Shown: positions 1 through 61,130 of the stretch, piece after piece | Numbering within the stretch: the stretch's first letter is position 1 | How the letters are laid out: the number at the start of each line of letters is the position of its first letter | From: Eledone cirrhosa | Lineage: Eukaryota | Assembly: GCA_964016885.1 (NCBI GenBank) | Contig: OZ024753.1 | Coordinates: 13,516,001-13,580,000 of the forward strand | Direction: 5' to 3' | Length of the DNA: 64,000 nucleotides | Position numbers and translations under genes: made by a program | Notes under the pieces: model-generated | The model's input: the letters and a program-made list of their open reading frames with translations, nothing else | What the model was told of the DNA's origin: nothing | Databases searched by the model: none

Positions 1-547
1 AGGATAGGGGAGGTGTTGAGTGGAAGGTAGAGTGGGCTGTAGGATAGGGGAGGTGTTGGGTGGAAGGTAGAGCAGGCTGTAGGATAGGGGAGGTGTTGGG
101 TGGAAGGTAGAGTGGGCTGTAGGATAGGGGAGGTGTTGGGTGGAAGGTAGAGTGGGCTGTAGGATAGGGGAGGTGTTGGGTGGAAGGTAGAGCAGGCTGT
201 AGGATAGGGGAGGTGTTGGGTGGAAGGTAGAGCAGGCTGTAGGATAGGGGAGGTGTTGGGTGGAAGGTAGAGTGGGCTGTAGGATAGGGGAGGCGTTCGG
301 TGGATGGTAGAGCAGGCTGTAGGATAGGGGAGGTGTTGGGTGGAAGGTAGAGTGGGCTGTAGGATAGGGGAGGTGTTTTGGTGGAGGTAGAGTGGGCTGT
401 AGGATAGGGTAGACGTTGGGTGGATGTTAGAGTGGGCTGTAGGGTAGGGGAGGTGTTGGGTGGATGGTAGCGCAGGCTGTAGGATAGGGGAGGCGTTGGG
501 TGCAAGCTAGAGTGGGCTGTAGGATACGGGAGGCGTTGAGTGGAAGG
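1..547 (-). repeat. 40-bp tandem minisatellite (~13 copies, continues off the window edge) derived from the Tigger transposase motif LYLPPNTSPILQP
   Basis: Unit aggataggggaggtgttgggtggaaggtagagtgggctgt; its reverse complement ctc tac ctt cca ccc aac acc tcc cct atc cta cag ccc reads LYLPPNTSPILQP and directly follows LLLYNAPVHPPNLEDDIL of the adjacent transposase. Confidence 0.9.
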
Positions 548-3239: not shown

Positions 3240-3478
3240 AAGATATAACAAAAGTCATAGAGGACATAAAAATAATAATAAAATGATTGTGGGCAGTGCT
3301 CAGGTGCGCCACAACACACCAAAGGTGCATGTATAGTGCATAGAATAATGCACAAAGGTCAGGAAAATGGACAGTGTATGAGTCATGATATACATGTGTG
3401 TATGGAGGTATCGAGGGGGGATATCAGGTACAGTGTTGGCGAATTTCAGGAAGCAAAGAGGTTTGAAAGGATGAAAAG

Positions 3479-6400
3479 ATGCAGTGTCTTGGCAGCTAAC
3501 AACTGATGCAGGGAGTTTGTTCCATGGAGGTTTTAAAGGATGCAGTGTCTTGGCAGCTAACAACTGATGCAGGTAGTTTGTTCCATGGAGGTTTTAAAGG
3601 ATGCAGTGTCTCGACAGCTAACAACTGATGCAGGGAGTTTGTTCCACAGAGGTTTTAAAGGATGCAGTGTCTCGGCAGCTAACAACTGATGCAGGGAGTT
3701 TGTTCAATGGAGGTTTTAAAGGATGCAGTGTCTCAACGGCTAACAACTGATGCAGGTAGTTTGTTCCATAGAGGTTTTAAAGGATGCAGTGTCTCGACAG
3801 CTAACAACTGATGCAGGGAGTTTGTTCCATGGAGGTTTTAAAGGATGCAGTGTCTCGGAGGCTAACAACTGATGCAGGGAGTTTGTTCCATGGAGGTTTT
3901 AAAGGATGCAGTGTCTCGACAGCTAACAACTGATGCAGGGAGTTTGTTCCATGGAGGTTTTAAAGGATGCAGTGTCTCGACAGCTAACAACTGATGCAGG
4001 GAGTTTGTTCCATGGAGGTTTTAAAGGATGCAGTGTCTCGGCAGCTAACAACTGATGCAGGGAGTTTGTTTCATGGAGGTTTTAAAGGATGCAGTGTCTC
4101 GACAGCTAACAACTGATGCAGGGAGTTTGTTCCACAGAGGTTTTAAAGGATGCAGTGTCTCGGCAGCTAACAACTGATGCAGGTAGTTTGTTCCATGGAG
4201 GTTTTAAAGGATGCAGTGTCTTAGCAGCTAACAACTGATGCAGGGAGTTTGTTCCATGGAGGTTTTAAAGGATGCAGTGTCTCGGCAGCTAACAACTGAT
4301 GCAGGGAGTTTGTTTAATGGAGGTTTTAAAGGATGCAGTGTCTCGACAGCTAACAACTGATGCAGGGAGTTTGTTCCACAGAGGTTTTAAAGGATGCAGT
4401 GTCTCGGCAGCTAACAACTGATGCAGGTAGTTTGTTCCATGGAGGTTTTAAAGGATGCAGTGTCTCAACAGCTAACAACTGATGCAGGGAGTTTGTTCCA
4501 TGGAGGTTTTAAACGATGCAGTGTCTTGACAGCTAACAACTGATGCTGGTAGTTTGTTCCATGGAGGTTTTAAAGGATGCAGTGTCTCGATAGCTAACAA
4601 CTGATGCAGGTAGTTTGTTCCATGGAGGTTTTAAAGGATGCAGTGTCTTGACAGCTAACAACTGATGCAGGTATTTTGTTCCATGGAGGTTTTAAAGGAT
4701 GCAGTGTCTCGACAGCTAACAACTGATGCAGGGAGTTTGTTCCATGGAGGTTTTAAAGGATGCAGTGTCTTGGGAGCTAACAACTGATGCAGGTAGTTTG
4801 TTCCATGGAGGTTTTAAAGGATGCAGTGTCTTGGCAGCTAACAACTGATGCAGGGAGTTTGTTCCATGGAGGTTTTAAAGGATGCAGTGTCTTGGCAGCT
4901 AACAACTGATGCAGGGAGTTTGTTCCATGAAGGTTTTAAAGGATGCAGTGTCTTGACAGCTAACAACTGATGCAGGTAGTTTGTTCCATGGAGGTTTTAA
5001 AGGATGCAGTGTCTTAGCAGCTAACAACTGATGCAGGGAGTTTGTTCCATGGGGGTTTTAAAGGATGCAGTGTCTTGACAGCTAACAACTGATGCTGTTA
5101 GTTTGTTCCATGGAGGTTTTAAAGGATGCAGTGTCTCGATAGCTAACAACTGATGCAGGTAGTTTGTTCCATGGAGGTTTTAAAGGATGCAGTGTCTTGA
5201 CAGCTAACAACTGATGCAGGTATTTTGTTCCATGGAGGTTTTAAAGGATGCAGTGTCTCGACAGCTAACAACTGATGCAGGGAGTTTGTTCCATGGAGGT
5301 TTTAAAGGATGCAGTGTCTTGGGAGCTAACAACTGATGCAGGTAGTTTGTTCCATGGAGGTTTTAAAGGATGCAGTGTCTTGACAGCTAACAACTGATGC
5401 AGGGAGTTTGTTCCACGGAGGTTTTAAAGGATGCAGGTCTTGACAGCTAACAACTGATGCAGGGAGTTTGTTCCATGGAGGTTTTAAAGGATGCAGTGTC
5501 TCGGCAGCTAACAACTGATGCAGGTAGTTTGTTCCATGGAGGTTTTAAAGGATGCAGTGTCTTAGCAGCTAACAACTGATGCAGGGAGTTTGTTCCATGG
5601 AGGTTTTAAAGGATGCAGTGTCTCGACAGCTAACAACTAATGCAGGGAGTTTGTTCCATGGAGGTTTTAAAGGATGCAGTGTCTTGACAGCTAACAACTG
5701 ATGCTGGTAGTTTGTTCCATGGAGGTTTTAAAGGATGCAGTGTCTCGATAGCTAACAACTGATGCAGGTAGTTTGTTCCATGGAGGTTTTAAAGGATGCA
5801 GTGTCTTGACAGCTAACAACTGATGCAGGTATTTTGTTCCATGGAGGTTTTAAAGGATGCAGTGTCTCGACAGCTAACAACTGATGCAGGGAGTTTGTTC
5901 CATGGAGGTTTTAAAGAATGCAGTGTCTCGACAGCTAACAACTGATGCAGGGAGTTTGTTCCATGGAGGTTTTAAAGGATGCAGTGTCTCGGCAGCTAAC
6001 AACTGATGCAGGGAGTTTGTTCCATGGAGGTTTTAAAGGATGCAGTGTCTCGGAGGCTAACAACTGATGCAGGGAGTTTGTTCCATGGAGGTTTTAAAGG
6101 ATGCAGTGTCTCGACAGCTAACAACTGATGCAGGGAGTTTGTTCCATGGAGGTTTTAAAGGATGCAGTGTCTCGACAGCTAACAACTGATGCAGGGAGTT
6201 TGTTCCATGGAGGTTTTAAAGGATGCAGTGTCTCGGCAGCTAACAACTGATGCAGGGGGTTTGTTTCATGGAGGTTTTAAAGGATGCAGTGTCTCGACAG
6301 CTAACAACTGATGCAGGGAGTTTGTTCCACAGAGGTTTTAAAGGATGCAGTGTCTCGGCAGCTAACAACTGATGCAGGTAGTTTGTTCCATGGAGGTTTT

Positions 6401-9400
6401 AAAGGATGCAGTGTCTTAGCAGCTAACAACTGATGCAGGGAGTTTGTTCCATGGAGGTTTTAAAGGATGCAGTGTCTCGGCAGCTAACAACTGATGCAGG
6501 GAGTTTGTTTCATGGAGGTTTTAAAGGATGCAGTGTCTTGACAGCTAACAACTGATGCAGGGAGTTTGTTCCACAGAGGTTTTAAAGGATGCAGTGTCTC
6601 GGCAGCTAACAACTGATGCAGGTAGTTTGTTCCATGGAGGTTTTAAAGGATGCAGTGTCTCAACAGCTAACAACTGATGCAGGGAGTTTGTTCCATGGAG
6701 GTTTTAAACGATGCAGTGTCTTGACAGCTAACAACTGATGCTGGTAGTTTGTTCCATGGAGGTTTTAAAGGATGCAGTGTCTCGATAGCTAACAACTGAT
6801 GCAGGTAGTTTGTTCCATGGAGGTTTTAAAGGATGCAGTGTCTTGACAGCTAACAACTGATGCAGGTATTTTGTTCCATGGAGGTTTTAAAGGATGCAGT
6901 GTCTCGACAGCTAACAACTGATGCAGGGAGTTTGTTCCATGGAGGTTTTAAAGGATGCAGTGTCTTGGGAGCTAACAACTGATGCAGGTAGTTTGTTCCA
7001 TGGAGGTTTTAAAGGATGCAGTGTCTTGGCAGCTAACAACTGATGCAGGGAGTTTGTTCCATGGAGGTTTTAAAGGATGCAGTGTCTTGGCAGCTAACAA
7101 CTGATGCAGGGAGTTTGTTCCATGAAGGTTTTAAAGTATGCAGTGTCTTGACAGCTAACAACTGATGCAGGTAGATTGTTCCATGGAGGTTTTAAAGGAT
7201 GCAGTGTCTTAGCAGCTAACAGCTGATGCAGGGAGTTTGTTCCATGGGGGTTTTAAAGGATGCAGTGTCTTGACAGCTAACAACTGATGCTGTTAGTTTG
7301 TTCCATGGAGGTTTTAAAGGATGCAGTGTCTCGATAGCTAACAACTGATGCAGGTAGTTTGTTCCATGGAGGTTTTAAAGGATGCAGTGTCTTGACAGCT
7401 AACAACTGATGCAGGTATTTTGTTCCATGGAGGTTTTAAAGGATGCAGTGTCTCGACAGCTAACAACTGATGCAGGGAGTTTGTTCCATGGAGGTTTTAA
7501 AGGATGCAGTGTCTTGGGAGCTAACAACTGATGCAGGTAGTTTGTTCCATGGAGGTTTTAAAGGATGCAGTGTCTTGACAGCTAACAACTGATGCAGGGA
7601 GTTTGTTCCACGGAGGTTTTAAAGGATGCAGGTCTTGACAGCTAACAACTGATGCAGGGAGTTTGTTCCATGGAGGTTTTAAAGGATGCAGTGTCTCGGC
7701 AGCTAACAACTGATGCAGGTAGTTTGTTCCATGGAGGTTTTAAAGGATGCAGTGTCTTAGCAGCTAACAACTGATGCAGGGAGTTTGTTCCATGGAGGTT
7801 TTAAAGGATGCAGTGTCTCGACAGCTAACAACTAATGCAGGGAGTTTGTTCCATGGAGGTTTTAAAGGATGCAGTGTCTTGACAGCTAACAACTGATGCA
7901 GGTATTTTGTTCCATGGAGGTTTTAAAGGATGCAGTGTCTCGACAGCTAACAACTGATGCAGGGAGTTTGTTCCATGGAGGTTTTAAAGAATGCAGTGTC
8001 TCGACAGCTAACAACTGATGCAGGGAGTTTGTTCCACGGAGGTTTTAAAGGATGCAGTGTCTTGACAGCTAACAACTGATGCAGGGAGTTTGTTCCACGG
8101 AGGTTTTCAAGGATGCAGGTCTTGACAGCTAACAACTGATGCAGGGAGTTTGTTCCATGGAGGTTTTAAAGGATGCAGTGTCTCGACAGCTAACAACTGA
8201 TGCAGGGAGTTTGTTCCACAGAGGTTTTAAAGGATGCAGTGTCTCGACAGCTAACAACTGATGCAGGGAGTTTGTTCCACGGAGGTTTTAAAGGATGCAG
8301 TGTCTCGACAGCTAACAACTGATGCAGGGAGTTTGTTCCACGGAGGTTTTAAAGGATGCTGTGTCTCGACGGCTAACAACTGATGCAGGGAGTTTGTTCC
8401 TCGGAGGTTTTAAAGGATGCAGTGTCTCGACAGCTAACAACTGATGCAGGGAGTTTGTTCCACGGAGGTTTTAAAGGATGCTGTGTCTCGACGGCTAACA
8501 ACTGATGCAGGGAGTTTGTTCCACGGAGGTTTTAAAGGATGCAGTGTCTCGACAGCTAACAACTGATGCAGGGAGTTTGTTCCACAGAGGTTTTAAAGGA
8601 TGCAGTGTCTCGGCAGCTAACAACTGATGCAGGTAGTTTGTTCCATGGAGGTTTTAAAGGATGCAGTGTCTTAGCAGCTAACAACTGATGCAGGGAGTTT
8701 GTTCCATGGAGGTTTTAAAGGATGCAGTGTCTCGACAGCTAACAACTAATGCAGGGAGTTTGTTCCATGGAGGTTTTAAAGGATGCAGTGTCTTGACAGC
8801 TAACAACTGATGCTGGTAGTTTGTTCCATGGAGGTTTTAAAGGATGCAGTGTCTCGATAGCTAACAACTGATGCAGGTATTTTGTTCCATGGAGGTTTTA
8901 AAGGATGCAGTGTCTCGACAGCTAACAACTGATGCAGGGAGTTTGTTCCATGGAGGTTTTAAAGGATGCAGTGTCTTAGCAGCTAACAACTGATGCAGGG
9001 AGTTTGTTCCATGGAGGTTTTAAAGGATGCAGTTTCTCGACAGCTAACAACTAATGCAGGGAGTTTGTTCCATGGAGGTTTTAAAGGATGCAGTGTCTTG
9101 ACAGCTAACAACTGATGCTGGTAGTTTGTTCCATGGAGGTTTTAAAGGATGCAGTGTCTTGACAGCTAACAACTGATGCAGGTAGTTTGTTCCATGGAGG
9201 TTTTAAAGGATGCAGTGTCTTGACAGCTAACAACTGATGCAGGGAGTTTGTTCCACGGAGGTTTTCAAGGATGCAGGTCTTGACAGCTAACAACTGATGC
9301 AGGGAGTTTGTTCCATGGAGGTTTTAAAGGATGCAGTGTCTCGACGGCTAACAACTGATGCAGGGAGTTTGTTCCACGGAGGTTTTAAAGGATGCAGTGT

Positions 9401-12400
9401 CTTGGGAGCTAACAACTGATGCAGGGAGTTTGTTCAATGGAGGTTTTAAAGGATGCAGTGTCTCAACGGCTAACAACTGATGCAGGTAGTTTGTTCCATA
9501 GAGGTTTTAAAGGATGCAGTGTCTCAACAGCTAACAACTGATGCAGGGAGTTTGTTCCATGGAGGTTTTAAAGGATGCAGTGTCTCGACAGCTAACAACT
9601 GATGCAGGGAGTTTGTTCCACGGAGGTTTTAAAGGATGCAGTGTCTCGGCAGCTAACAACTGATGCAGGGAGTTTGTTCCACGGAGGTTTTAAAGGATGC
9701 AGTGTCTTGACAGCTAACAACTGATGTAGGGTGTTTGTTCCATGGAGGTTTTAAAGGATGCAGTGTCTTGGGAGCTAACAACTGCTGCAGGTAGTTTGTT
9801 CCATGGAGGTTTTAAAGGATGCAGTGTCTTGACAGCTAACAACTGATGCTGGGAGTTTGTTCCATGGAGGTTTTAAAGCATGCAGTGTTTCGACAGCTAA
9901 CAACTGATGCAGGGAGTTTGTTCCACGGAGGTTTTAAAGGATGCTGTGTCTCGACGGCTAACAACTGATGCAGGGAGTTTGTTCCTCGGAGGTTTTAAAG
10001 GATGCAGTGTCTCGACAGCTAACAACTGATGCAGGGAGTTTGTTCCACGGAGGTTTTAAAGGATGCTGTGTCTCGACGGCTAACAACTGATGCAGGGAGT
10101 TTGTTCCACGGAGGTTTTAAAGGATGCAGTGTCTCGACAGCTAACAACTGATGCAGGGAGTTTGTTCCACAGAGGTTTTAGTGGATGCAGTGTCTCGGCA
10201 GCTAACAACTGATGCAGGTAGTTTGTTCCATGGAGGTTTTAAAGGATGCAGTGTCTTAGCAGCTAACAACTGATGCAGGGAGTTTGTTCCATGGAGGTTT
10301 TAAAGGATGCAGTGTCTCGACAGCTAACAACTAATGCAGGGAGTTTGTTCCATGGAGGTTTTAAAGGATGCAGTGTCTTGACAGCTAACAACTGATGCTG
10401 GTAGTTTGTTCCATGGAGGTTTTAAAGGATGCAGTGTCTCGATAGCTAACAACTGATGCAGGTATTTTGTTCCATGGAGGTTTTAAAGGATGCAGTGTCT
10501 CGACAGCTAACAACTGATGCAGGGAGTTTGTTCCATGGAGGTTTTAAAGGATGCAGTGTCTTAGCAGCTAACAACTGATGCAGGGAGTTTGTTCCATGGA
10601 GGTTTTAAAGGATGCAGTTTCTCGACAGCTAACAACTAATGCAGGGAGTTTGTTCCATGGAGGTTTTAAAGGATGCAGTGTCTTGACAGCTAACAACTGA
10701 TGCTGGTAGTTTGTTCCATGGAGGTTTTAAAGGATGCAGTGTCTTGACAGCTAACAACTGATGCAGGTAGTTTGTTCCATGGAGGTTTTAAAGGATGCAG
10801 TGTCTTGACAGCTAACAACTGATGCAGGGAGTTTGTTCCACGGAGGTTTTCAAGGATGCAGGTCTTGACAGCTAACAACTGATGCAGGGAGTTTGTTCCA
10901 TGGAGGTTTTAAAGGATGCAGTGTCTCGACGGCTAACAACTGATGCAGGGAGTTTGTTCCACGGAGGTTTTAAAGGATGCAGTGTCTTGGGAGCTAACAA
11001 CTGATGCAGGGAGTTTGTTCAATGGAGGTTTTAAAGGATGCAGTGTCTCAACGGCTAACAACTGATGCAGGTAGTTTGTTCCATAGAGGTTTTAAAGGAT
11101 GCAGTGTCTCAACAGCTAACAACTGATGCAGGGAGTTTGTTCCATGGAGGTTTTAAAGGATGCAGTGTCTCGACAGCTAACAACTGATGCAGGGAGTTTG
11201 TTCCACGGAGGTTTTAAAGGATGCAGTGTCTCGGCAGCTAACAACTGATGCAGGGAGTTTGTTCCACGGAGGTTTTAAAGGATGCAGTGTCTTGACAGCT
11301 AACAACTGATGTAGGGTGTTTGTTCCATGGAGGTTTTAAAGGATGCAGTGTCTTGGGAGCTAACAACTGCTGCAGGTAGTTTGTTCCATGGAGGTTTTAA
11401 AGGATGCAGTGTCTTGACAGCTAACAACTGATGCTGGGAGTTTGTTCCATGGAGGTTTTAAAGCATGCAGTGTTTCGACAGCTAACAACTGATGCAGGGA
11501 GTTTGTTCCATCGAGGTTTTAAAGGATGCAGTGTCTCGACGGCTCACAACTGATGCAGGTAGTTTGTTCCATGGTTTTAAAGGATGCAGTGTCTTGGCAG
11601 CTAACAACTGATGCAGTGAGTTTGTTCCATCGAGGTTTTAAAGGATGCAGTGTCTCGACGGCTAACAACTGATGCAGGTAGTTTGTTCCATGGAAGTTTT
11701 AAAGGATGCAGTGTCTTGGCACCTAACAACTGATGCAGGGAGTTTGTTCCATGGAAGTTTTAAAGGATGCAGTGTCTCGACAGCTAACAACTGATGCAGG
11801 GAGTTTGTTCCACAGAGGTTTTAAAGGATGCAGTGTCTCGGCAGCTAACAACTGATGCAGGTAGTTTGTTCCATGGAGGTTTTAAAGGATGCAGTGTCTC
11901 AACAGCTAACAACTGATGCAGGGAGTTTGTTCCATGGAGGTTTTAAACGATGCAGTGTCTTGACAGCTAACAACTGATGCTGGTAGTTTGTTCCATGGAG
12001 GTTTTAAAGGATGCAGTGTCTCGATAGCTAACAACTGATGCAGGTAGTTTGTTCCATGGAGGTTTTAAAGGATGCAGTGTCTTGACAGCTCACAACTGAT
12101 GCAGGTATTTTGTTCCATGGAGGTTTTAAAGGATGCAGTGTCTCGACAGCTAACAACTGATGCAGGGAGTTTGTTCCATGGAGGTTTTAAAGGATGCAGT
12201 GTCTTGGGAGCTAACAACTGATGCAGGTAGTTTGTTCCATGGAGGTTTTAAAGGATGCAGTGTCTTGGCAGCTAACAACTGATGCAGGGAGTTTGTTCCA
12301 TGGAGGTTTTAAAGGATGCAGTGTCTTGGCAGCTAACAACTGATGCAGGGAGTTTGTTCCATGAAGGTTTTAAAGGATGCAGTGTCTTGACAGCTAACAA

Positions 12401-15400: not shown

Positions 15401-18400
15401 GTTTGTTCCATGGAGGTTTTAAAGGATGCAGTGTCTCGGAGGCTAACAACTGATGCAGGGAGTTTGTTCCATGGAGGTTTTAAAGGATGCAGTGTCTCGA
15501 CAGCTAACAACTGATGCAGGGAGTTTGTTCCATGGAGGTTTTAAAGGATGCTGTGTCTCGACAGCTAACAACTGATGCAGGGAGTTTGTTCCATGGAGGT
15601 TTTAAAGGATGCAGTGTCTCGGCAGCTAACAACTGATGCAGGGAGTTTGTTTCATGGAGGTTTTAAAGGATGCAGTGTCTCGACAGCTAACAACTGATGC
15701 AGGGAGTTTGTTCCACAGAGGTTTTAAAGGATGCAGTGTCTCGGCAGCTAACAACTGATGCAGGTAGTTTGTTCCATGGAGGTTTTAAAGGATGCAGTGT
15801 CTTAGCAGCTAACAACTGATGCAGGGAGTTTGTTCCATGGAGGTTTTAAAGGATGCAGTGTCTCGGCAGCTAACAACTGATGCAGGGAGTTTGTTTCATG
15901 GAGGTTTTAAAGGATGCAGTGTCTCGACAGCTAACAACTGATGCAGGGAGTTTGTTCCACAGAGGTTTTAAAGGATGCAGTGTCTCGGCAGCTAACAACT
16001 GATGCAGGTAGTTTGTTCCATGGAGGTTTTAAAGGATGCAGTGTCTCAACAGCTAACAACTGATGCAGGGAGTTTGTTCCATGGAGGTTTTAAACGATGC
16101 AGTGTCTTGACAGCTAACAACTGATGCTGGTAGTTTGTTCCATGGAGGTTTTAAAGGATGCAGTGTCTCGATAGCTAACAACTGATGCAGGTAGTTTGTA
16201 CCATGGAGGTTTTAAAGGATGCAGTGTCTTGACAGCTAACAACTGATGCAGGTATTTTGTTCCATGGAGGTTTTAAAGGATGCAGTGTCTCGACAGCTAA
16301 CAACTGATGCAGGGAGTTTGTTCCATGGAGGTTTTAAAGGATGCAGTGTCTTGGGAGCTAACAACTGATGCAGGTAGTTTGTTCCATGGAGGTTTTAAAG
16401 GATGCAGTGTCTTGGCAGCTAACAACTGATGCAGGGAGTTTGTTCCATGGAGGTTTTAAAGGATGCAGTGTCTTGGCAGCTAACAACTGATGCAGGGAGT
16501 TTGTTCCATGAAGGTTTTAAAGGATGCAGTGTCTTGACAGCTAACAACTGATGCAGGTAGTTTGTTCCATGGAGGTTTTAAAGGATGCAGTGTCTTAGCA
16601 GCTAACAACTGATGCAGGGAGTTTGTTCCATGGGGGTTTTAAAGGATGCAGTGTCTTGACAGCTAACAACTGATGCTGTTAGTTTGTTCCATGGAGGTTT
16701 TAAAGGATGCAGTGTCTCGATAGCTAACAACTGATGCAGGTAGTTTGTTCCATGGAGGTTTTAAAGGATGCAGTGTCTTGACAGCTAACAACTGATGCAG
16801 GTATTTTGTTCCATGGAGGTTTTAAAGGATGCAGTGTCTCGACAGCTAACAACTGATGCAGGGAGTTTGTTCCATGGAGGTTTTAAAGGATGCAGTGTCT
16901 TGGGAGCTAACAACTGATGCAGGTAGTTTGTTCCATGGAGGTTTTAAAGGATGCAGTGTCATGACAGCTAACAACTGATGCAGGGAGTTTGTTCCACGGA
17001 GGTTTTAAAGGATGCAGGTCTTGACAGCTAACAACTGATGCAGGGAGTTTGTTCCATGGAGGTTTTAAAGGATGCAGTGTCTCGGCAGCTAACAACTGAT
17101 GCAGGTAGTTTGTTCCATGGAGGTTTTAAAGGATGCAGTGTCTTAGCAGCTAACAACTGATGCAGGGAGTTTGTTCCATGGAGGTTTTAAAGGATGCAGT
17201 GTCTCGACAGCTAACAACTAATGCAGGGAGTTTGTTCCATGGAGGTTTTAAAGGATGCAGTGTCTTGACAGCTAACAACTGATGCTGGTAGTTTGTTCCA
17301 TGGAGGTTTTAAAGGATGCAGTGTCTCGATAGCTAACAACTGATGCAGGTAGTTTGTTCCATGGAGGTTTTAAAGGATGCAGTGTCTTGACAGCTAACAA
17401 CTGATGCAGGTATTTTGTTCCATGGAGGTTTTAAAGGATGCAGTGTCTCGACAGCTAACAACTGATGCAGGGAGTTTGTTCCATGGAGGTTTTAAAGAAT
17501 GCAGTGTCTTGACAGCTAACAACTGATGCTGGTAGTTTGTTCCATGGAGGTTTTAAAGGATGCAGTGTCTTGACAGCTAACAACTAATGCAGGGAGTTTG
17601 TTCCATGGAGGTTTTAAAGGATGCAGTGTCTTGACAGCTAACAACTGATGCTGGTAGTTTGTTCCATGGAGGTTTTAAAGGATGCAGTGTCTTGACAGCT
17701 AACAACTGATGCAGGTAGTTTGTTCCATGGAGGTTTTAAAGGATGCAGTGTCTTGACAGCTAACAACTGATGCAGGGAGTTTGTTCCACGGAGGTTTTCA
17801 AGGATGCAGGTCTTGACAGCTAACAACTGATGCAGGGAGTTTGTTCCATGGAGGTTTTAAAGGATGCAGTGTCTCGACGGCTAACAACTGATGCAGGGAG
17901 TTTGTTCCACGGAGGTTTTAAAGGATGCAGTGTCTTGGGAGCTAACAACTGATGCAGGGAGTTTGTTCAATGGAGGTTTTAAAGGATGCAGTGTCTCAAC
18001 GGCTAACAACTGATGCAGGTAGTTTGTTCCATAGAGGTTTTAAAGGATGCAGTGTCTCGACAGCTAACAACTGATGCAGGGAGTTTGTTCCATGGAGGTT
18101 TTAAACGATGCAGTGTCTTGACAGCTAACAACTGATGCTGGTAGTTTGTTCCATGGAGGTTTTAAAGGATGCAGTGTCTCGATAGCTAACAACTGATGCA
18201 GGTAGTTTGTACCATGGAGGTTTTAAAGGATGCAGTGTCTTGACAGCTAACAACTGATGCAGGTATTTTGTTCCATGGAGGTTTTAAAGGATGCAGTGTC
18301 TCGACAGCTAACAACTGATGCAGGGAGTTTGTTCCATGGAGGTTTTAAAGGATGCAGTGTCTTGGGAGCTAACAACTGATGCAGGTAGTTTGTTCCATGG

Positions 18401-21400
18401 AGGTTTTAAAGGATGCAGTGTCTTGGCAGCTAACAACTGATGCAGGGAGTTTGTTCCATGGAGGTTTTAAAGGATGCAGTGTCTTGGCAGCTAACAACTG
18501 ATGCAGGGAGTTTGTTCCATGAAGGTTTTAAAGGATGCAGTGTCTTGACAGCTAACAACTGATGCAGGTAGTTTGTTCCATGGAGGTTTTAAAGGATGCA
18601 GTGTCTTAGCAGCTAACAACTGATGCAGGGAGTTTGTTCCATGGGGGTTTTAAAGGATGCAGTGTCTTGACAGCTAACAACTGATGCTGTTAGTTTGTTC
18701 CATGGAGGTTTTAAAGGATGCAGTGTCTCGATAGCTAACAACTGATGCAGGTAGTTTGTTCCATGGAGGTTTTAAAGGATGCAGTGTCTTGACAGCTAAC
18801 AACTGATGCAGGTATTTTGTTCCATGGAGGTTTTAAAGGATGCAGTGTCTCGACAGCTAACAACTGATGCAGGGAGTTTGTTCCATGGAGGTTTTAAAGG
18901 ATGCAGTGTCTTGGGAGCTAACAACTGATGCAGGTAGTTTGTTCCATGGAGGTTTTAAAGGATGCAGTGTCTTGACAGCTAACAACTGATGCAGGGAGTT
19001 TGTTCCACGGAGGTTTTAAAGGATGCAGGTCTTGACAGCTAACAACTGATGCAGGGAGTTTGTTCCATGGAGGTTTTAAAGGATGCAGTGTCTCGGCAGC
19101 TAACAACTGATGCAGGTAGTTTGTTCCATGGAGGTTTTAAAGGATGCAGTGTCTTAGCAGCTAACAACTGATGCAGGGAGTTTGTTCCATGGAGGTTTTA
19201 AAGGATGCAGTGTCTCGACAGCTAACAACTAATGCAGGGAGTTTGTTCCATGGAGGTTTTAAAGGATGCAGTGTCTCGACAGCTAACAACTGATGCAGGG
19301 AGTTTGTTCCATGGAGGTTTTAAAGGATGCAGTGTCTCGGCAGCTAACAACTGATGCAGGGAGTTTGTTTCATGGAGGTTTTAAAGGATGCAGTGTCTCG
19401 ACAGCTAACAACTGATGCAGGGAGTTTGTTCCACAGAGGTTTTAAAGGATGCAGTGTCTCGGCAGCTAACAACTGATGCAGGTAGTTTGTTCCATGGAGG
19501 TTTTAAAGGATGCAGTGTCTTAGCAGCTAACAACTGATGCAGGGAGTTTGTTCCATGGAGGTTTTAAAGGATGCAGTGTCTCGGCAGCTAACAACTGATG
19601 CAGGGAGTTTGTTTCATGGAGGTTTTAAAGGATGCAGTGTCTCGACAGCTAACAACTGATGCAGGGAGTTTGTTCCACAGAGGTTTTAAAGGATGCAGTG
19701 TCTCGGCAGCTAACAACTGATGCAGGTAGTTTGTTCCATGGAGGTTTTAAAGGATGCAGTGTCTCAACAGCTAACAACTGATGCAGGGAGTTTGTTCCAT
19801 GGAGGTTTTAAACGATGCAGTGTCTTGACAGCTAACAACTGATGCTGGTAGTTTGTTCCATGGAGGTTTTAAAGGATGCAGTGTCTCGATAGCTAACAAC
19901 TGATGCAGGTAGTTTGTACCATGGAGGTTTTAAAGGATGCAGTGTCTTGACAGCTAACAACTGATGCAGGTATTTTGTTCCATGGAGGTTTTAAAGGATG
20001 CAGTGTCTCGACAGCTAACAACTGATGCAGGGAGTTTGTTCCATGGAGGTTTTAAAGGATGCAGTGTCTTGGGAGCTAACAACTGATGCAGGTAGTTTGT
20101 TCCATGGAGGTTTTAAAGGATGCAGTGTCTTGGCAGCTAACAACTGATGCAGGGAGTTTGTTCCATGGAGGTTTTAAAGGATGCAGTGTCTTGGCAGCTA
20201 ACAACTGATGCAGGGAGTTTGTTCCATGAAGGTTTTAAAGGATGCAGTGTCTTGACAGCTAACAACTGATGCAGGTAGTTTGTTCCATGGAGGTTTTAAA
20301 GGATGCAGTGTCTTAGCAGCTAACAACTGATGCAGGGAGTTTGTTCCATGGGGGTTTTAAAGGATGCAGTGTCTTGACAGCTAACAACTGATGCTGTTAG
20401 TTTGTTCCATGGAGGTTTTAAAGGATGCAGTGTCTCGATAGCTAACAACTGATGCAGGTAGTTTGTTCCATGGAGGTTTTAAAGGATGCAGTGTCTTGAC
20501 AGCTAACAACTGATGCAGGTATTTTGTTCCATGGAGGTTTTAAAGGATGCAGTGTCTCGACAGCTAACAACTGATGCAGGGAGTTTGTTCCATGGAGGTT
20601 TTAAAGGATGCAGTGTCTTGGGAGCTAACAACTGATGCAGGTAGTTTGTTCCATGGAGGTTTTAAAGGATGCAGTGTCATGACAGCTAACAACTGATGCA
20701 GGGAGTTTGTTCCACGGAGGTTTTAAAGGATGCAGGTCTTGACAGCTAACAACTGATGCAGGGAGTTTGTTCCATGGAGGTTTTAAAGGATGCAGTGTCT
20801 CGGCAGCTAACAACTGATGCAGGTAGTTTGTTCCATGGAGGTTTTAAAGGATGCAGTGTCTTAGCAGCTAACAACTGATGCAGGGAGTTTGTTCCATGGA
20901 GGTTTTAAAGGATGCAGTGTCTCGACAGCTAACAACTAATGCAGGGAGTTTGTTCCATGGAGGTTTTAAAGGATGCAGTGTCTTGACAGCTAACAACTGA
21001 TGCTGGTAGTTTGTTCCATGGAGGTTTTAAAGGATGCAGTGTCTCGATAGCTAACAACTGATGCAGGTAGTTTGTTCCATGGAGGTTTTAAAGGATGCAG
21101 TGTCTTGACAGCTAACAACTGATGCAGGTATTTTGTTCCATGGAGGTTTTAAAGGATGCAGTGTCTCGACAGCTAACAACTGATGCAGGGAGTTTGTTCC
21201 ATGGAGGTTTTAAAGAATGCAGTGTCTCGACAGCTAACAACTGATGCAGGGAGTTTGTTCCACGGAGGTTTTAAAGGATGCAGTGTCTTGACAGCTAACA
21301 ACTGATGCAGGGAGTTTGTTCCATGGAGGTTTTCAAGGATGCAGGTCTTGACAGCTAACAACTGATGCAGGGAGTTTGTTCCATGGAGGTTTTAAAGGAT

Positions 21401-24400
21401 GCAGTGTCTCGACGGCTAACAACTGATGCAGGGAGTTTGTTCCACGGAGGTTTTAAAGGATGCAGTGTCTCGACAGCTAACAACTGATGCAGGGAGTTTG
21501 TTCCACAGAGGTTTTAAAGGATGCAGTGTCTCGGCAGCTAACAACTGATGCAGGTAGTTTGTTCCATGGAGGTTTTAAAGGATGCAGTGTCTTAGCAGCT
21601 AACAACTGATGCAGGGAGTTTGTTCCATGGAGGTTTTAAAGGATGCAGCGTCTCGACAGCTAACAACTAATGCAGGGAGTTTGTTCCATGGAGGTTTTAA
21701 AGGATGCAGTGTCTTGACAGCTAACAACTGATGCTGGTAGTTTGTTCCATGGAGGTTTTAAAGGATGCAGTGTCTCGATAGCTAACAACTGATGCAGGTA
21801 TTTTGTTCCATGGAGGTTTTAAAGGATGCAGTGTCTCGACAGCTAACAACTGATGCAGGGAGTTTGTTCCATGGAGGTTTTAAAGGATGCAGTGTCTTAG
21901 CAGCTAACAACTGATGCAGGGAGTTTGTTCCATGGAGGTTTTAAAGGATGCAGTTTCTCGACAGCTAACAACTAATGCAGGGAGTTTGTTCCATGGAGGT
22001 TTTAAAGGATGCAGTGTCTTGACAGCTAACAACTGATGCTGGTAGTTTGTTCCATGGAGGTTTTAAAGGATGCAGTGTCTTGACAGCTAACAACTGATGC
22101 AGGTAGTTTGTTCCATGGAGGTTTTAAAGGATGCAGTGTCTTGACAGCTAACAACTGATGCAGGGAGTTTGTTCCACGGAGGTTTTCAAGGATGCAGGTC
22201 TTGACAGCTAACAACTGATGCAGGGAGTTTGTTCCATGGAGGTTTTAAAGGATGCAGTGTCTCGACGGCTAACAACTGATGCAGGGAGTTTGTTCCACGG
22301 AGGTTTTAAAGGATGCAGTGTCTTGGGAGCTAACAACTGATGCAGGGAGTTTGTTCAATGGAGGTTTTAAAGGATGCAGTGTCTCAACGGCTAACAACTG
22401 ATGCAGGTAGTTTGTTCCATAGAGGTTTTAAAGGATGCAGTGTCTCGACAGCTAACAACTGATGCAGGGAGTTTGTTCCATGGAGGTTTTAAACGATGCA
22501 GTGTCTTGACAGCTAACAACTGATGCTGGTAGTTTGTTCCATGGAGGTTTTAAAGGATGCAGTGTCTCGATAGCTAACAACTGATGCAGGTAGTTTGTAC
22601 CATGGAGGTTTTAAAGGATGCAGTGTCTTGACAGCTAACAACTGATGCAGGTATTTTGTTCCATGGAGGTTTTAAAGGATGCAGTGTCTCGACAGCTAAC
22701 AACTGATGCAGGGAGTTTGTTCCATGGAGGTTTTAAAGGATGCAGTGTCTTGGGAGCTAACAACTGATGCAGGTAGTTTGTTCCATGGAGGTTTTAAAGG
22801 ATGCAGTGTCTTGGCAGCTAACAACTGATGCAGGGAGTTTGTTCCATGGAGGTTTTAAAGGATGCAGTGTCTTGGCAGCTAACAACTGATGCAGGGAGTT
22901 TGTTCCATGAAGGTTTTAAAGGATGCAGTGTCTTGACAGCTAACAACTGATGCAGGTAGTTTGTTCCATGGAGGTTTTAAAGGATGCAGTGTCTTAGCAG
23001 CTAACAACTGATGCAGGGAGTTTGTTCCATGGGGGTTTTAAAGGATGCAGTGTCTTGACAGCTAACAACTGATGCTGTTAGTTTGTTCCATGGAGGTTTT
23101 AAAGGATGCAGTGTCTCGATAGCTAACAACTGATGCAGGTAGTTTGTTCCATGGAGGTTTTAAAGGATGCAGTGTCTTGACAGCTAACAACTGATGCAGG
23201 TATTTTGTTCCATGGAGGTTTTAAAGGATGCAGTGTCTCGACAGCTAACAACTGATGCAGGGAGTTTGTTCCATGGAGGTTTTAAAGGATGCAGTGTCTT
23301 GGGAGCTAACAACTGATGCAGGTAGTTTGTTCCATGGAGGTTTTAAAGGATGCAGTGTCTTGACAGCTAACAACTGATGCAGGGAGTTTGTTCCACGGAG
23401 GTTTTAAAGGATGCAGGTCTTGACAGCTAACAACTGATGCAGGGAGTTTGTTCCATGGAGGTTTTAAAGGATGCAGTGTCTCGGCAGCTAACAACTGATG
23501 CAGGTAGTTTGTTCCATGGAGGTTTTAAAGGATGCAGTGTCTTAGCAGCTAACAACTGATGCAGGGAGTTTGTTCCATGGAGGTTTTAAAGGATGCAGTG
23601 TCTCGACAGCTAACAACTAATGCAGGGAGTTTGTTCCATGGAGGTTTTAAAGGATGCAGTGTCTTGACAGCTAACAACTGATGCTGGTAGTTTGTTCCAT
23701 GGAGGTTTTAAAGGATGCAGTGTCTCGATAGCTAACAACTGATGCAGGTAGTTTGTTCCATGGAGGTTTTAAAGGATGCAGTGTCTTGACAGCTAACAAC
23801 TGATGCAGGTATTTTGTTCCATGGAGGTTTTAAAGGATGCAGTGTCTCGACAGCTAACAACTGATGCAGGGAGTTTGTTCCATGGAGGTTTTAAAGAATG
23901 CAGTGTCTCGACAGCTAACAACTGATGCAGGGAGTTTGTTCCACGGAGGTTTTAAAGGATGCAGTGTCTTGACAGCTAACAACTGATGCAGGGAGTTTGT
24001 TCCATGGAGGTTTTCAAGGATGCAGGTCTTGACAGCTAACAACTGATGCAGGGAGTTTGTTCCATGGAGGTTTTAAAGGATGCAGTGTCTCGACGGCTAA
24101 CAACTGATGCAGGGAGTTTGTTCCACGGAGGTTTTAAAGGATGCAGTGTCTCGACAGCTAACAACTGATGCAGGGAGTTTGTTCCACAGAGGTTTTAAAG
24201 GATGCAGTGTCTCGGCAGCTAACAACTGATGCAGGTAGTTTGTTCCATGGAGGTTTTAAAGGATGCAGTGTCTTAGCAGCTAACAACTGATGCAGGGAGT
24301 TTGTTCCATGGAGGTTTTAAAGGATGCAGTGTCTCGACAGCTAACAACTAATGCAGGGAGTTTGTTCCATGGAGGTTTTAAAGGATGCAGTGTCTTGACA

Positions 24401-25770
24401 GCTAACAACTGATGCTGGTAGTTTGTTCCATGGAGGTTTTAAAGGATGCAGTGTCTCGATAGCTAACAACTGATGCAGGTATTTTGTTCCATGGAGGTTT
24501 TAAAGGATGCAGTGTCTCGACAGCTAACAACTGATGCAGGGAGTTTGTTCCATGGAGGTTTTAAAGGATGCAGTGTCTTAGCAGCTAACAACTGATGCAG
24601 GGAGTTTGTTCCATGGAGGTTTTAAAGGATGCAGTTTCTCGACAGCTAACAACTAATGCAGGGAGTTTGTTCCATGGAGGTTTTAAAGGATGCAGTGTCT
24701 TGACAGCTAACAACTGATGCTGGTAGTTTGTTCCATGGAGGTTTTAAAGGATGCAGTGTCTTGACAGCTAACAACTGATGCAGGTAGTTTGTTCCATGGA
24801 GGTTTTAAAGGATGCAGTGTCTTGACAGCTAACAACTGATGCAGGGAGTTTGTTCCACGGAGGTTTTCAAGGATGCAGGTCTTGACAGCTAACAACTGAT
24901 GCAGGGAGTTTGTTCCATGGAGGTTTTAAAGGATGCAGTGTCTCGACGGCTAACAACTGATGCAGGGAGTTTGTTCCACGGAGGTTTTAAAGGATGCAGT
25001 GTCTTGGGAGCTAACAACTGATGCAGGGAGTTTGTTCAATGGAGGTTTTAAAGGATGCAGTGTCTCAACGGCTAACAACTGATGCAGGTAGTTTGTTCCA
25101 TAGAGGTTTTAAAGGATGCAGTGTCTCGACAGCTAACAACTGATGCAGGGAGTTTGTTCCATGGAGGTTTTAAAGGATGCAGTGTCTCGACAGCTAACAA
25201 CTGATGCAGGGAGTTTGTTCCACGGAGGTTTTAAAGGATGCAGTGTCTCGGCAGCTAACAACTGATGCAGGGAGTTTGTTCCACGGAGGTTTTAAAGGAT
25301 GCAGTGTCTTGACAGCTAACAACTGATGTAGGGTGTTTGTTCCATGGAGGTTTTAAAGGATGCAGTGTCTTGGGAGCTAACAACTGCTGCAGGTAGTTTG
25401 TTCCATGGAGGTTTTAAAGGATGCAGTGTCTTGACAGCTAACAACTGATGCTGGGAGTTTGTTCCATGGAGGTTTTAAAGCATGCAGTGTTTCGACAGCT
25501 AACAACTGATGCAGGGAGTTTGTTCCATCGAGGTTTTAAAGGATGCAGTGTCTCGACGGCTCACAACTGATGCAGGTAGTTTGTTCCATGGTTTTAAAGG
25601 ATGCAGTGTCTTGGCAGCTAACAACTGATGCAGTAAGTTTGTTCCATCGAGGTTTTAAAGGATGCAGTGTCTCGACGGCTAACAACTGATGCAGGTAGTT
25701 TGTTCCATGGAAGTTTTAAAGGATGCAGTGTCTTGGCACCTAACAACTGATGCAGGGAGTTTGTTCCATG
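3479..25770 (-). repeat. 61-bp satellite, ~365 units, with higher-order repeats; unit encodes WNKLPASVVSCQDTASFKTSM
   Basis: Consensus (+) ccatggaggttttaaaggatgcagtgtctYgRcagctaacaactgatgcaggKagtttgtt; in frame with upstream FFMLRIAEAWNKLP; marker variants recur at 2195, 1585, 1952, 2681 and 4388 bp spacings. Confidence 0.97.
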
Positions 25771-27540
25771 CTTCAGCAATTCTGAGCATGAAAAAATATT
25801 TCCGAAAATTATGGGAGCTGTGCTGTTTTCTGACTTTGTAGGCATGCCCACGGGTGTTAGACACATGGAAATCAAAAAGGAGCTCAGAGTTGTTGTTGCA
25901 AGATGGTTAATAATTTTGTGGGTGTTTACCAAGTCAGTTGCCAGATGTCGGAGCTTCAATGTATCCTTACCCAGGGAAGCAAGACGTTCAGATTATGGTA
26001 GATGTCTGATGGAGGGTATTCGCTTGGTTGCACGTCCCTGAACAGTTTCCAGGAGGTCAATGTTCGAAGCAAGATAGGGGTTCCAGACAGGTGATGCAAA
26101 TTCTAAGTGTGGCTGCACCATAGCTATATAGAGTTTTAAATAGATAGCTGGAGACCGGTTGACAAAGGTCTTGCTGAGTGATGCCAAAGCACTCTCAGAC
26201 TTCTTGACAATTTTAGAGATGTGCTTTGTCCAACGCAAATCGCATTGACAGTAATGCCCAGAAGACTTCTTGATATTAGTGTTGTGGAGGAAGTATGTGG
26301 ATGCTGGGTTTTTCCTCCTAAAATGCATGGTGGTACACTTGTCCACAGCTAGCTTGAGTTGCCAGTCCGTGATCCATTGTTGCATTGTGTCCAGGTCTAT
26401 TACAGGAAATATCTATAGTGTTCAGGATTTGTCCTTTTTATCTCAAGCTACAGCTTGATGTCATCTGCATATTTCAGTACTGTGACATTCTTTAAGTTGG
26501 CATCTATGTCATTAATATATGCAACTAACAAAAGCAGACCAAGAACAGGTCCCTGTGGTACACCAGATAACATCTTAGATGGTGAGGAATGCTGTCCTAG
26601 AACCGCGACTACCTCTCTTCGACTGAGAATGAAGAACTTCAACCAGTTAAAAAGATCATCCTTCACACCCATTGCAGAGAGTTTTGCCAAAAGTCTGTTG
26701 TGTGGCACAGAATTAAAAGCTTTAGCAAAGTCAAGGTAAACAACATCCACCCATGAACCGCTAGCAGTGATCCGGGTGATGTCTTCAAGAAATACGCTAA
26801 GTTGATCACAGCAACTAGTAAGACTGACTGAACGATAGTTGACAGGCGACGTGAGGTCATCCTTTTTGAACAGAGGAATGACACTGGCAGTTTTCCACTG
26901 CTCCGGAGTAGCACCGTTGTTAAGACAGAATTGAAAGAAGAGTGAATGCTGGTGCAGAAGGAAGTACCCTCAATGTTTGAGAAGCAGGTATGTAACACCA
27001 TCAAGACCATGAGAGGCATGGTTGCATTTATTCTTAAGGTGACGTCGCAGCATGGCAGGTGTAACTTCCATAGTTGTAATAGAATTTGATGACAGAGGTG
27101 GTGGAGATGGTATGTTTTGGTTTTCAACAGTGAAAATGCCTGCATAGCATTCAGCAATGAGTTCTGCACATTCCTTGGGGTCGTCAGTAACCTGGCTTGT
27201 GTGGGGATTGCGAAGAGGGCCAAATGAAGAGTGAGGTCTCTGCTTTGAATGTACATAATTCCAGAACACCTTACTGTCAGGGCTGGTTGCTATACGCTGT
27301 TCAAATTCAAGCACTGCCTTTTTTGTCACCTTCTTGAGATGGTTGGATGATTTATTTCGCTTTTTTCTATTGATATCTGATTTATGCAGTTTGTATGACG
27401 TTCTTTCCTGGCAAGTCGGAACGCTGCAGTCTTCCAAATTGCAGTTTCGGATGTTTTTTTCTGAACATGTGGCACTGATGCTGCACATGCTGTTCATATT
27501 GAGTTCAGGATGTTCTGAAGTATAATGTTCACATATCCAG
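25771..27540 (-). pseudogene. Frameshifted reverse transcriptase ORF2 of the CR1/L2-group LINE
   Basis: Fragments [65 protein letters not shown] in different frames. Confidence 0.9.
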
Positions 27541-27831
27541 AGACGTAAAATTCAAGCCAGTCCTGACTATCGATAGTTTCGCTTGTACTTTGTGGAAATG
27601 TCTAATCATTGCATTATCCGTGAGGCTTTGAGTTTTTCAAGAGACTCCCTCGGTTAGAACCGAAATTTCCAAAACGTTTCACGTAAATCGAAGCACGGGT
27701 TCCCAAGATATGGGGTTTCCTGGGTATCTTCATAAACAGAGAGAGAGAGAAAGATACATAGAAAGAGATAGTGGTTGAGAGAGTAGATTGAAAGAGAGAC
27801 TTAGAGAGAGGGAGGAGTGACAGAGAAGGAG

Positions 27832-34557: not shown

Positions 34558-34558
34558 G

Positions 34559-34609
<51 letters not shown>

Positions 34610-34634
34610 GTATGTATATATATATATATGTATG

Positions 34635-34667
<33 letters not shown>

Positions 34668-34772
34668 AAATATGTATATATGTATATATATAAATATGTA
34701 TATATGTATATATATATATATGTATATATATATATGTATGTATAAATATATATATATATGTATATGTATATA

Positions 34773-37022: not shown

Positions 37023-37239
37023 TTGTATATATATATATGTCTGTATGTGTGTGTGTGTGTGTGTGTAGATATGCTTGCGTGTGTGTGTATATATATATAT
37101 GAATATGTATATTATTATTGTTGTTGTCGTTATTATTATTATTGCTATTATTATTATTATTATTATTATTATTTTTATTTTTATTTTATTTTTTTTTCTT
37201 CTCGTGCAATGGCCATACTCGATAACGAGGGGGCAGGTG

Positions 37240-38291: not shown

Positions 38292-38320
38292 GTATGTATA
38301 TATATATATATATATGTATG

Positions 38321-38351
<31 letters not shown>

Positions 38352-38375
38352 ATATATATGTACGTGCATATATAT

Positions 38376-38429
<54 letters not shown>

Positions 38430-38731
38430 ACATATATGTATGTGTATATATGTATATGTATGTGTATATATGTATATATATATGTACGTGTATATATGTA
38501 TATATATATATATGTGTATATATATATGTGTATATATATATGTGTGTGTATATATATATATATATGTATGTGTATATATATATATATGTGTGTGTGTATT
38601 GAAGTGAAAACCAACAGGTGCATGTGTTTTTATTGACAACATGACCCTCCCAAAGTATAACAATATCTGTTTTAACAGACGTTTTCAGAAATCTTGCAAA
38701 ACAAATTCAAAGACGAAGTATATATATATAT

Positions 38732-48811: not shown

Positions 48812-49138
48812 ATATTATGTGAGGTAAAGCCTTTACTGTGAAAATACAATAGTATATATAGAGTAATGTAAATGTTATGTGAGGTAAAGCCTTTATTGTG
48901 AAAATACAATAGTATATATAGAGTAATGTAAATGTTATGTGAGATATTATGTGAGGTAAAGCCTTTACTGTGAAAATACAATAGTATATATAGAGTAATG
49001 TAAATGTTATGAGATATTATGTGAGGTAAAGCCTTTACTGTGAAAATACAATAGTATATATAGAGTAATGTAAATGTTATGTGAGATATTATGTGAGGTA
49101 AAGCCTTTACTGTGAAAATACAATAGTATATATAGAGT
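48812..49138. repeat. 60/72-bp tandem array, left part (~5 units)
   Basis: ttatgtgag(atattatgtgag)gtaaagcctttactgtgaaaatacaatagtatatatagagtaatgtaaatg. Confidence 0.93.
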
Positions 49139-52813: not shown

Positions 52814-52834
52814 GTTGGTTAAAAGAGGAAGGAC

Positions 52835-61081: not shown

Positions 61082-61130
<49 letters not shown>

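What the first reader, a model, noticed from the sequence alone, without database searches (positions are those of the whole stretch)
3268..27540. 22-kb satellite born inside one LINE copy from the last ~20 codons of ORF2
Seen: the LINE reads ...FFMLRIAEA-[WNKLPASVVSCQDTASFKTSM]x~365, then after a slightly rearranged last unit LPEIRQHCT*, 3' UTR and tail, so both original flanks survive around the array. Unit joins fall on a CATG overlap, and the flanks form a short inverted pair (GAAGCA..TGCTTC). The LINE body is heavily frameshifted while the units are nearly identical. Inference: expansion happened long after insertion, by DNA-level amplification rather than RT stuttering. This is an unusually complete record of de novo satellite birth. 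Three units make 183 bp, about one nucleosome repeat, so a nascent heterochromatic or centromere-like role is conceivable but unproven.
Basis: partly seen in the sequence, partly recalled or inferred. Interest (0 to 1): 0.75.

Follow-up and report, generated by a model that had tools for sequence, protein, structure and literature searches.

The report
LINE site breeds and trades satellites
A 22-kb block of 366 short repeats sits inside one dead jumping gene, and the same 61 bases are repeated at the same spot inside many other copies of that gene (one block reaches 174 kb), where young copies hold repeat units of the older type that were likely swapped in from other places in the genome.

Summary
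The array is real: 366 units of 61 bp lie between the ORF2 end and the 3' UTR of one CR1-like LINE copy. It is not a one-off. Ten of 85 copies sampled without regard to units carry 2 or more units at the same site. About 29,000 junctions exist genome-wide (estimate). Arrays avoid the four big chromosomes (2 of 36, 2 of 37), and one reaches 174 kb with both flanks intact. Array copies are not one clade. A young subfamily is single-unit in 23 of 24 copies, so arrays arise copy by copy. Twelve of its 16 arrays mix their own marked unit with older-type units, which likely reflects unit exchange between loci. The window's bulk came from recent block duplications; there is no 3-unit or nucleosome period. 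The closest known case is the snake SINE satellite sSat3. The scan earlier noted the same pattern for another LINE in this genome, and probably one other array of this family. The length of this array and the mixed units rest on the assembly; long reads are needed.

The parts
3268..3284 (-). ATT-type simple-repeat tail of the LINE
   Evidence: same tail in paralogs
3285..3423 (-). LINE 3' UTR, older (B-type) subfamily marks
   Evidence: the 188-nt end piece matches 19 of 19 paralogs at 78-87%, two only in part; marks
3424..3453 (-). last 9 codons and stop of ORF2 (LPEIRQHCT*), now cut off from the rest of ORF2
   Evidence: unnamed homologs end in the same way
3454..3526 (-). degenerate last unit: 8-nt internal duplication, right arm of the inverted repeat damaged
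3474..25770 (-). tandem array of 366 x 61 bp; 62 unit types; irregular recent block duplications up to 31 units; no fixed higher-order repeat
25765..25774 (-). left arm of the 10-bp inverted repeat that brackets the single unit in paralogs; holds the 4-base overlap (25767-25770) on which every unit join falls
25771..27555 (-). 5'-truncated, broken ORF2 remnant of a CR1-like LINE; RT domain at 26451-26969

Best explanation
The array is one large member of a family-wide series in which a 61-bp piece at the end of ORF2 is tandemly repeated inside separate copies of one CR1-like LINE, likely started after insertion by slippage or repair between the two 4-base overlaps of a 10-bp inverted repeat, likely mixed by recombination with units from other loci, and then grown in place by block duplication. 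Step 1 (shown): source elements carry one unit and insert across the genome. Step 2 (shown as a pattern, mechanism inferred): individual copies duplicate their own unit, always in the same register. Step 3 (shown in the assembly, mechanism inferred): arrays take in units of another subfamily type between their own first and last units, most simply by non-allelic gene conversion or template-switch repair. Step 4 (shown): runs of units are copied in blocks, giving 2 to about 2,800 units. Steps 2-4 happen mostly on small chromosomes and near chromosome ends (shown), likely because recombination is higher there (inferred; no map available). No function is needed or shown.
For: SAME SITE, MANY LOCI: 15,072 exact junction matches, control 0; 505 of 983 stored junctions match that pattern, giving about 29,000; 10 of 85 unit-blind copies are multi-unit; 810 of 822 unit steps are 61 bp. 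COPY-BY-COPY ORIGIN: a flank-only tree needs 23 changes and one clade is rejected, AU p=0.0006; ORF-side and UTR subfamily marks stay linked across arrays; the young UTR-deletion subfamily is single-unit in 23 of 24 copies and all 24 carry GG at unit columns 56-57; 4 of its 16 arrays, plus the unit-blind L260, are pure GG. EXCHANGE: in those 16 arrays the last unit is GG in 16, the first in 12, and 12 hold older AA units; 10 older-type arrays hold a few GG units; L223 joins an old-subfamily UTR to common-type and chimeric units; inherited unit marks are fixed in 1 case among 62 arrays against about 43 expected, and in 1 of 12 and 0 of 7 arrays not selected on those columns (p=0.003, 0.03); 7 of about 81 arrays begin inside a unit, which a truncated single unit cannot produce alone. 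LOCAL GROWTH. POSITION: 2 of 36 and 2 of 37 arrays on C1-C4, which hold 54% of the genome; unit-blind distance to an end p=0.026.
Against: All unit patterns come from one assembly; short-read polishing could pull internal units toward the majority type. Against that, 4 of 16 loci repeat private variants on their AA units, several patterns look periodic, and a pure 28-unit GG array exists. Fifteen of the 16 young arrays were found with a query holding both unit types, so 12 of 16 overstates how common mixing is. Linked variant pairs shared between loci do not exceed permutations (p=0.06; p=0.13). In the window itself exchange is not shown: units are 1.1 differences from the family majority where 3.5 are expected, which is suggestive only. 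The stem is not unusually stable (z -0.2 to -0.9), and three other inverted repeats of 9-11 bp in the same 1.3 kb are not known to seed arrays (not checked). Arrays keep shorter ORF2 remnants than singles (29 of 81 against 11 of 74 at 60 nt or less, p=0.003; against distal singles p=0.22), which this model does not predict. Flanks show no GC-biased conversion (0.43 against 0.44). Young against old multi-unit share (1 of 24, 10 of 85) is not significant (p=0.45).
Confidence: 0.68

Rival explanations
1. The first units are made during reverse transcription: the RT slips back, or jumps between RNA molecules, from the left overlap to the right overlap of the stem, so copies insert with 2 or a few units, sometimes of mixed type; DNA-level growth follows.
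For: Short ORF2 remnants upstream of arrays, three ending at the same base at the foot of the outer stem; 5' ends inside a unit in 7 of about 81 arrays; old dimers whose two units differ by 4-5 bases (L013, L070, L124); L196 has full resident-type units at both ends and foreign ones between; small duplications and deletions between short repeats occur in the UTR.
Against: Arrays avoid the big chromosomes while single copies do not; 23 of 24 young copies are single; no excess of A-to-G change once the GG mark is set aside (126 less about 66, against 57).
Confidence: 0.17
2. Array-bearing source elements spread ready-made arrays through RNA, as SVA or Ogre elements carry their repeats.
For: L196 is a full-length copy with open ORF1 (424 aa) and ORF2 (944 aa) and 10 units; ORF2 reads into unit 2 and stops, so the array changes only the last 9 residues. 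Sixteen arrays share a derived UTR.
Against: The direct test failed: that same UTR type is single-unit in 23 of 24 unit-blind copies. Array copies are not one clade. Only 7 of about 81 arrays are cut inside the array, too few if long arrays were reverse-transcribed.
Confidence: 0.05
3. The array length and the mixed units are products of assembly or polishing.
For: No long reads were laid on the window array; the stored patterns come from one assembly.
Against: The junction stands in raw reads of a second study; the window array has 62 types in perfect duplicated blocks and no N; private variants repeat on AA units in 4 of 16 loci.
Confidence: 0.07
4. One reading: a single de novo birth in this copy, possibly a nascent heterochromatic or centromeric satellite with a 3-unit nucleosome period.
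For: Both flanks survive; the bulk of the array is recent.
Against: Many loci share the site; no 3-unit period here or in the 174-kb array.
Confidence: 0.03

Closest known systems
SINE-derived satellites of snakes, sSat3 (Vassetzky, Kosushkin and Ryskov 2023, PMC10702118; parts 1-4 of 5 of the text read, supplements not seen)
   Same: One fixed internal piece (67 nt there) of a retroelement is repeated at up to thousands of loci, from a few to hundreds of units, with subtelomeric bias and units more alike than the parent elements.
   Different: Here the parent is a LINE ORF2, not a SINE. Both flanks survive in 26 of 39 arrays of one sample, whereas that paper calls two-flank loci minor variants. 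Subfamily marks here separate resident from foreign units; I saw no such test in the parts read.
Maize CRM1TR and CRM4TR (Sharma et al. 2013, PMC3648361; abstract parts and passages read)
   Same: Tandem repeats made wholly from a retrotransposon, begun at short homologies, with non-allelic gene conversion proposed and monomers recombinant between subfamilies.
   Different: LTR elements, units of about 700-800 bp, two CRM1TR loci near one centromere; not a dispersed series of thousands.
Chicken HinfI (SCR1) repeat from CR1 ORF2 and 3' UTR; Phodopus PROsat and seal Pvc20 from L1 ORF2 (seen only as passages and table rows of the reviews PMC9659126 and PMC6947457)
   Same: Satellites holding LINE ORF2 sequence, one of them from a CR1 3' end.
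   Different: As listed in the reviews they are finished satellites; no in-place series from 1 to about 2,800 units is described in the passages I saw.
Minisatellite origin between short flanking repeats (Haber and Louis 1998; Jurka and Gentles 2006, as summarised in passages of PMC6947457)
   Same: First duplication by slippage or unequal exchange between short repeats, then growth by conversion and unequal exchange.
   Different: The direct repeat here is only 4 bp but lies inside a 10-bp inverted repeat; arrays reach satellite size.

Membership tests
CR1-group LINE (parent element) | RT domain with an N-terminal APE endonuclease in ORF2, behind an ORF1 | tested here: met
   RVT_1 in the window; Exo_endo_phos + RVT_1 and a 424-aa upstream ORF in full-length L196
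CR1-group LINE (parent element) | Tail of short tandem repeats rather than poly(A); frequent 5' truncation | tested here: met
   ATT-type tails and varied 5' ends; target duplications of 8 bp or more in only 4 of 41 arrays and 2 of 25 singles
CR1-group LINE (parent element) | Placement in the CR1 clade rather than L2 or a sister clade on an RT tree | tested here: inconclusive
   No named references held. Best named relatives of homolog P0002 are bird proteins at 35-40%; that bird LINEs are CR1 is recalled. L1 and R2 structures match only at E 1e-5 to 1e-12
Retroelement-derived satellite of the sSat3 kind | Unit is one fixed internal piece of a dispersed retroelement, repeated at many loci | tested here: met
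Retroelement-derived satellite of the sSat3 kind | Bias toward chromosome ends | tested here: met
   median 8.8-10.7 Mb from an end against 51-60 Mb for singles; telomeres themselves not located
Retroelement-derived satellite of the sSat3 kind | Units more alike than the parent copies | tested here: met
   unit below flank divergence in 7 of 9, 26 of 32 and 28 of 33 arrays; most arrays were found by unit similarity, and UTR-found arrays are mixed
Retroelement-derived satellite of the sSat3 kind | Parent is a SINE | tested here: not met
   parent is LINE ORF2; it works like sSat3 but is not a member
Mobile VNTR carrier (SVA or Ogre type) | Source element itself carries the array | tested here: not met
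   23 of 24 copies of the young subfamily are single-unit
Retrozyme | Hammerhead or other ribozyme in each unit | tested here: not met
   no ribozyme family among 28 Rfam matches at E up to 1 in L018, L022, L033; none reached its gathering score
Centromeric higher-order satellite | Regular higher-order or nucleosome-length period | tested here: not met
   irregular lags in the window and in the 174-kb array (best lag identity 5%)
Centromeric higher-order satellite | CENP-A binding | not testable with these tools
   no chromatin data

The most novel reading that the evidence does not exclude
The LINE seeds and homogenises its own satellite: its copies, intact ones included, form a network in which units pass between chromosomes through LINE RNA and RT (template jumps or RNA-templated repair at the stem), at no cost to the element because ORF2 stays open through the array.
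Probability: 0.15. Interest if true: 0.82.

Novelty: new variant of a known kind. Interest (0 to 1): 0.6.

Why it matters
How a satellite starts, and how arrays on different chromosomes come to resemble each other, are old questions that are usually studied after the starting point is lost. Here each array keeps its parent copy on both sides, sizes run from 1 to about 2,800 units, and subfamily marks tell resident units from foreign ones. Rates of first duplication, of exchange between loci and of growth can therefore be measured against copy age and chromosome position, probably over a few thousand loci (rough estimate). The general route from transposon to satellite is well known, so the window's array alone is ordinary; the marked, replicated series is what adds value.

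Tried and rejected
(1) Array-bearing young master: suggested, refuted. (2) Mosaic UTR haplotypes beside arrays: the count scored deletion gaps as mixed; without them it is 9 of 26 against 3 of 22, so dropped. (3) GC-biased conversion beside arrays: none overall. (4) RNA-editing marks: the A-to-G excess is explained by the GG subfamily mark. (5) Ribozyme or retrozyme: no match. (6) Three-unit period: absent. (7) Shared linked variants beyond chance: not significant. (8) Target-site duplications: mostly absent, including at L196. (9) Relatives: the 61-base back-joint stands in contigs of organism B (9 contigs, plus 10 with a variant right arm). It was not listed for organisms C, D, E and G, but contigs show presence, not absence. 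(10) No RNA holder was listed for the LINE; this is no evidence on expression. (11) An exact genome-wide count of single against multi-unit copies was not obtained; the share rests on samples. (12) Sample caveats: two single copies were mis-scored as lacking a unit and one pair of neighbours was merged, so the denominator is 85 to 87. One search dropped 3 arrays on unplaced contigs, and 6 of its 36 were judged from the match length only. One search used 89 of 97 rows. (13) Literature: searches listed no paper on this repeat, judged from titles and abstract starts; two searches returned nothing; an Octopus vulgaris repeat paper (PMC13282606, three passages) has no hit for 'satellite'; one recalled paper on multilocus tandem repeats is not held. 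Subscription papers and the sSat supplements were not seen and may bear on novelty.
Full report
OBSERVATION. The window is G000:C13:13,516,001-13,580,000, in a 3.0-Gb genome, 13.5 Mb from the start of a 47-Mb chromosome. It is probably an octopus; that is my impression plus earlier AI notes, not tested. TRF finds 365.9 copies of a 61-bp unit at 3474-25770. On the minus strand a broken ORF2 (RVT_1) runs into unit 1, and after a damaged last unit come the last 9 codons, the 3' UTR and an ATT-type tail. Eighteen of 19 paralogs found with the ORF2 body read ORF2 end, one unit, the same UTR and tail; one has two units. Unnamed homologous proteins end like the single-unit form, so one unit is the ancestral state. 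The element is CR1-like: endonuclease plus RT, repeat tail, nearest named relatives in birds; the exact clade was not placed.

THE WINDOW ARRAY. Its 365 full units fall into 62 types with 5.8% mean pairwise difference. Perfect blocks of 31, 31, 27, 22, 22 and 21 units recur at irregular lags, units 0-9 recur nearly unchanged at 230-239, and only 10 singleton variants exist in 22.3 kb. The LINE body is 6.3% from the family majority, with four frameshifting deletions. So most of the length is very recent and DNA-made, while the unit types are older. There is no 3-unit period and no open frame through the array.

NOT ONE COPY BUT A FAMILY-WIDE SITE. All 19 other loci fetched with a 4-unit plus UTR query carry 4 to at least 29 units at the same site. 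The exact unit-to-unit junction has 15,072 matches, control 0, with 10 arrays in the first 6.5 Mb of C1. About half of stored junctions match that pattern (505 of 983), giving roughly 29,000 junctions or 1.8 Mb; this is probably low, since young GG units do not match it. Four searches with UTR only gave 106 distinct copies; 85 span the site and 10 of them are multi-unit (denominator 85-87). One of the ten proved to be 174 kb long, with ORF2 on one side and the UTR on the other. The register is fixed: 810 of 822 steps are 61 bp. Raw Illumina reads of a second study with the species label of the best holder show the back-joint in 1,339 reads; contigs of organism B show it too.

WHERE. Arrays found with two different unit queries lie on C1-C4 in 2 of 36 and 2 of 37 cases, although these chromosomes hold 54% of the genome; single copies lie there in 48 of 74. 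In the unit-blind sample multi-unit copies are nearer to ends (p=0.026), but the split at 25 Mb is not significant (6 of 30 against 4 of 54, p=0.16). Tie-breaking in the search may inflate C1-C2 among singles; the test against genome share does not depend on them.

HOW ARRAYS START. A tree of flanks only (89 of 97 rows) needs 23 changes between single and multi-unit, and one clade is rejected (AU p=0.0006). ORF-side and UTR marks stay linked in arrays, so both flanks come from the resident copy. A double change at unit columns 56-57 (GG) first looked like the mark of an array-carrying master, because 16 arrays share it with a derived UTR. The unit-blind test refuted that: 23 of 24 copies of that UTR type are single, and all carry GG. 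GG therefore marks a young single-unit subfamily, and its pure-GG arrays (4 of 16, plus L260) are most simply duplications of the resident unit. In single copies the unit sits between the arms of a 10-bp inverted repeat whose 4-base core is also the only direct repeat at the join. That this stem promotes the slip is inferred; its folding energy is not unusual.

UNITS MOVE BETWEEN LOCI. In the 16 young arrays, on 7 chromosomes, the last unit is GG in all 16 and the first in 12, yet 12 arrays hold older AA units; repeated double reversion is not credible. L196, a full-length copy with open frames, has resident-type units at both ends and five AA units inside. Conversely, 10 older-type arrays hold a few GG units, and L223 joins an old-subfamily UTR to common-type and chimeric units. 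Other inherited marks are fixed in 1 case among 62 arrays where about 43 are expected, also in arrays not selected on those columns (1 of 12, 0 of 7). Seven of about 81 arrays begin inside a unit, though two have lost the UTR side, so deletion can explain some. Limits: 15 of the 16 were found with a mixed query; shared variant pairs do not beat permutations; everything rests on the assembly. Private variants repeated on AA units in 4 of 16 loci argue against polishing. For the window itself exchange is only suggested: first and last units carry the column-35 mark linked to its UTR type, 68% of units lack it, and units lie 1.1 rather than 3.5 differences from the family majority.

RIVALS. An RT-stage seed remains open: arrays keep shorter ORF2 remnants than singles (29 of 81 against 11 of 74 at 60 nt or less, p=0.003; p=0.22 against distal singles), and some dimers are old. 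The position bias and the single-unit young subfamily favour events after insertion. Array-carrying masters, a retrozyme and a centromeric repeat were tested and not met.

COMPARISON. It works like the snake satellite sSat3 (PMC10702118, parts 1-4 of 5 read) but derives from LINE ORF2 and usually keeps both flanks. Non-allelic conversion between subfamilies was proposed for maize CRM1TR at two loci (PMC3648361, passages). LINE ORF2 satellites are listed in two reviews (passages). Eight searches listed no paper on this repeat. The scan has noted the same series for an RTE element in this genome (e1-9855995; unchecked).

VERDICT. Real; a new variant of a known kind. Interest 0.6.

Noticed in passing
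G000:C2:3801571-3975565 (L194, L233-L244, L250-L254): A 174-kb array of the same 61-bp unit, about 2,820 units, with the UTR on one side, at least 1,070 bp of ORF2 on the other, and one unidentified 2.1-kb insert at 3953267-3955379.
   Followed up: partly
L196:3161-7769 (G000:C26, 2.96 Mb): Full-length copy of this LINE with open ORF1 and ORF2 and a 10-unit array; ORF2 runs into unit 2 and ends EQTTCISC* in place of its native last 9 residues.
   Followed up: yes
window 48814-56159: The same 72-bp unit forms arrays on both sides (48814-49138, 54841-56159) of a LINE with three long open frames (608, 686, 465 aa); it looks like an L1/Tx1-type element (recalled) inserted into a tandem repeat, perhaps a specific target.
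   Followed up: no
window 39655-39907, 43994-44934, 59000-59350: Three more tandem arrays (126, 118-124 and 49-52 bp) are made from pieces of a dispersed SINE-like repeat that also matches 44, 56 and 30 of 130 other loci.
   Followed up: partly
window 3285-3453: The 3' end shows 12 AT-to-GC against 4 GC-to-AT changes, while the ORF2 side shows 14 against 41; other arrays show no such bias. Post hoc and unexplained.
   Followed up: partly
unit column 14, in arrays and single copies: A non-CpG site that varies as much as the CpG: 12 of 49 singles and 25 of 48 multi-unit copies differ there, and one array shows all four bases.
   Followed up: partly
L025, L032, L075: Three arrays on different chromosomes lose their upstream LINE at the same base, 15 nt before unit 1, at the foot of the predicted outer stem; 8 more end 39-43 nt before it.
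   Followed up: partly
window 32117-34900 and 35173-39427: A long open endonuclease-RT frame of another LINE (927 aa from stop to stop, starting in a microsatellite) and several RTE-like fragments (family names recalled).
   Followed up: no
window 1-547 and 550-1500: A G-rich 40-bp minisatellite running off the window start, followed by what looks like a decayed pogo/Tigger transposase (recalled, not tested).
   Followed up: no
window 61082-64000: A 2.9-kb compound TA/TATG microsatellite running off the window end.
   Followed up: no
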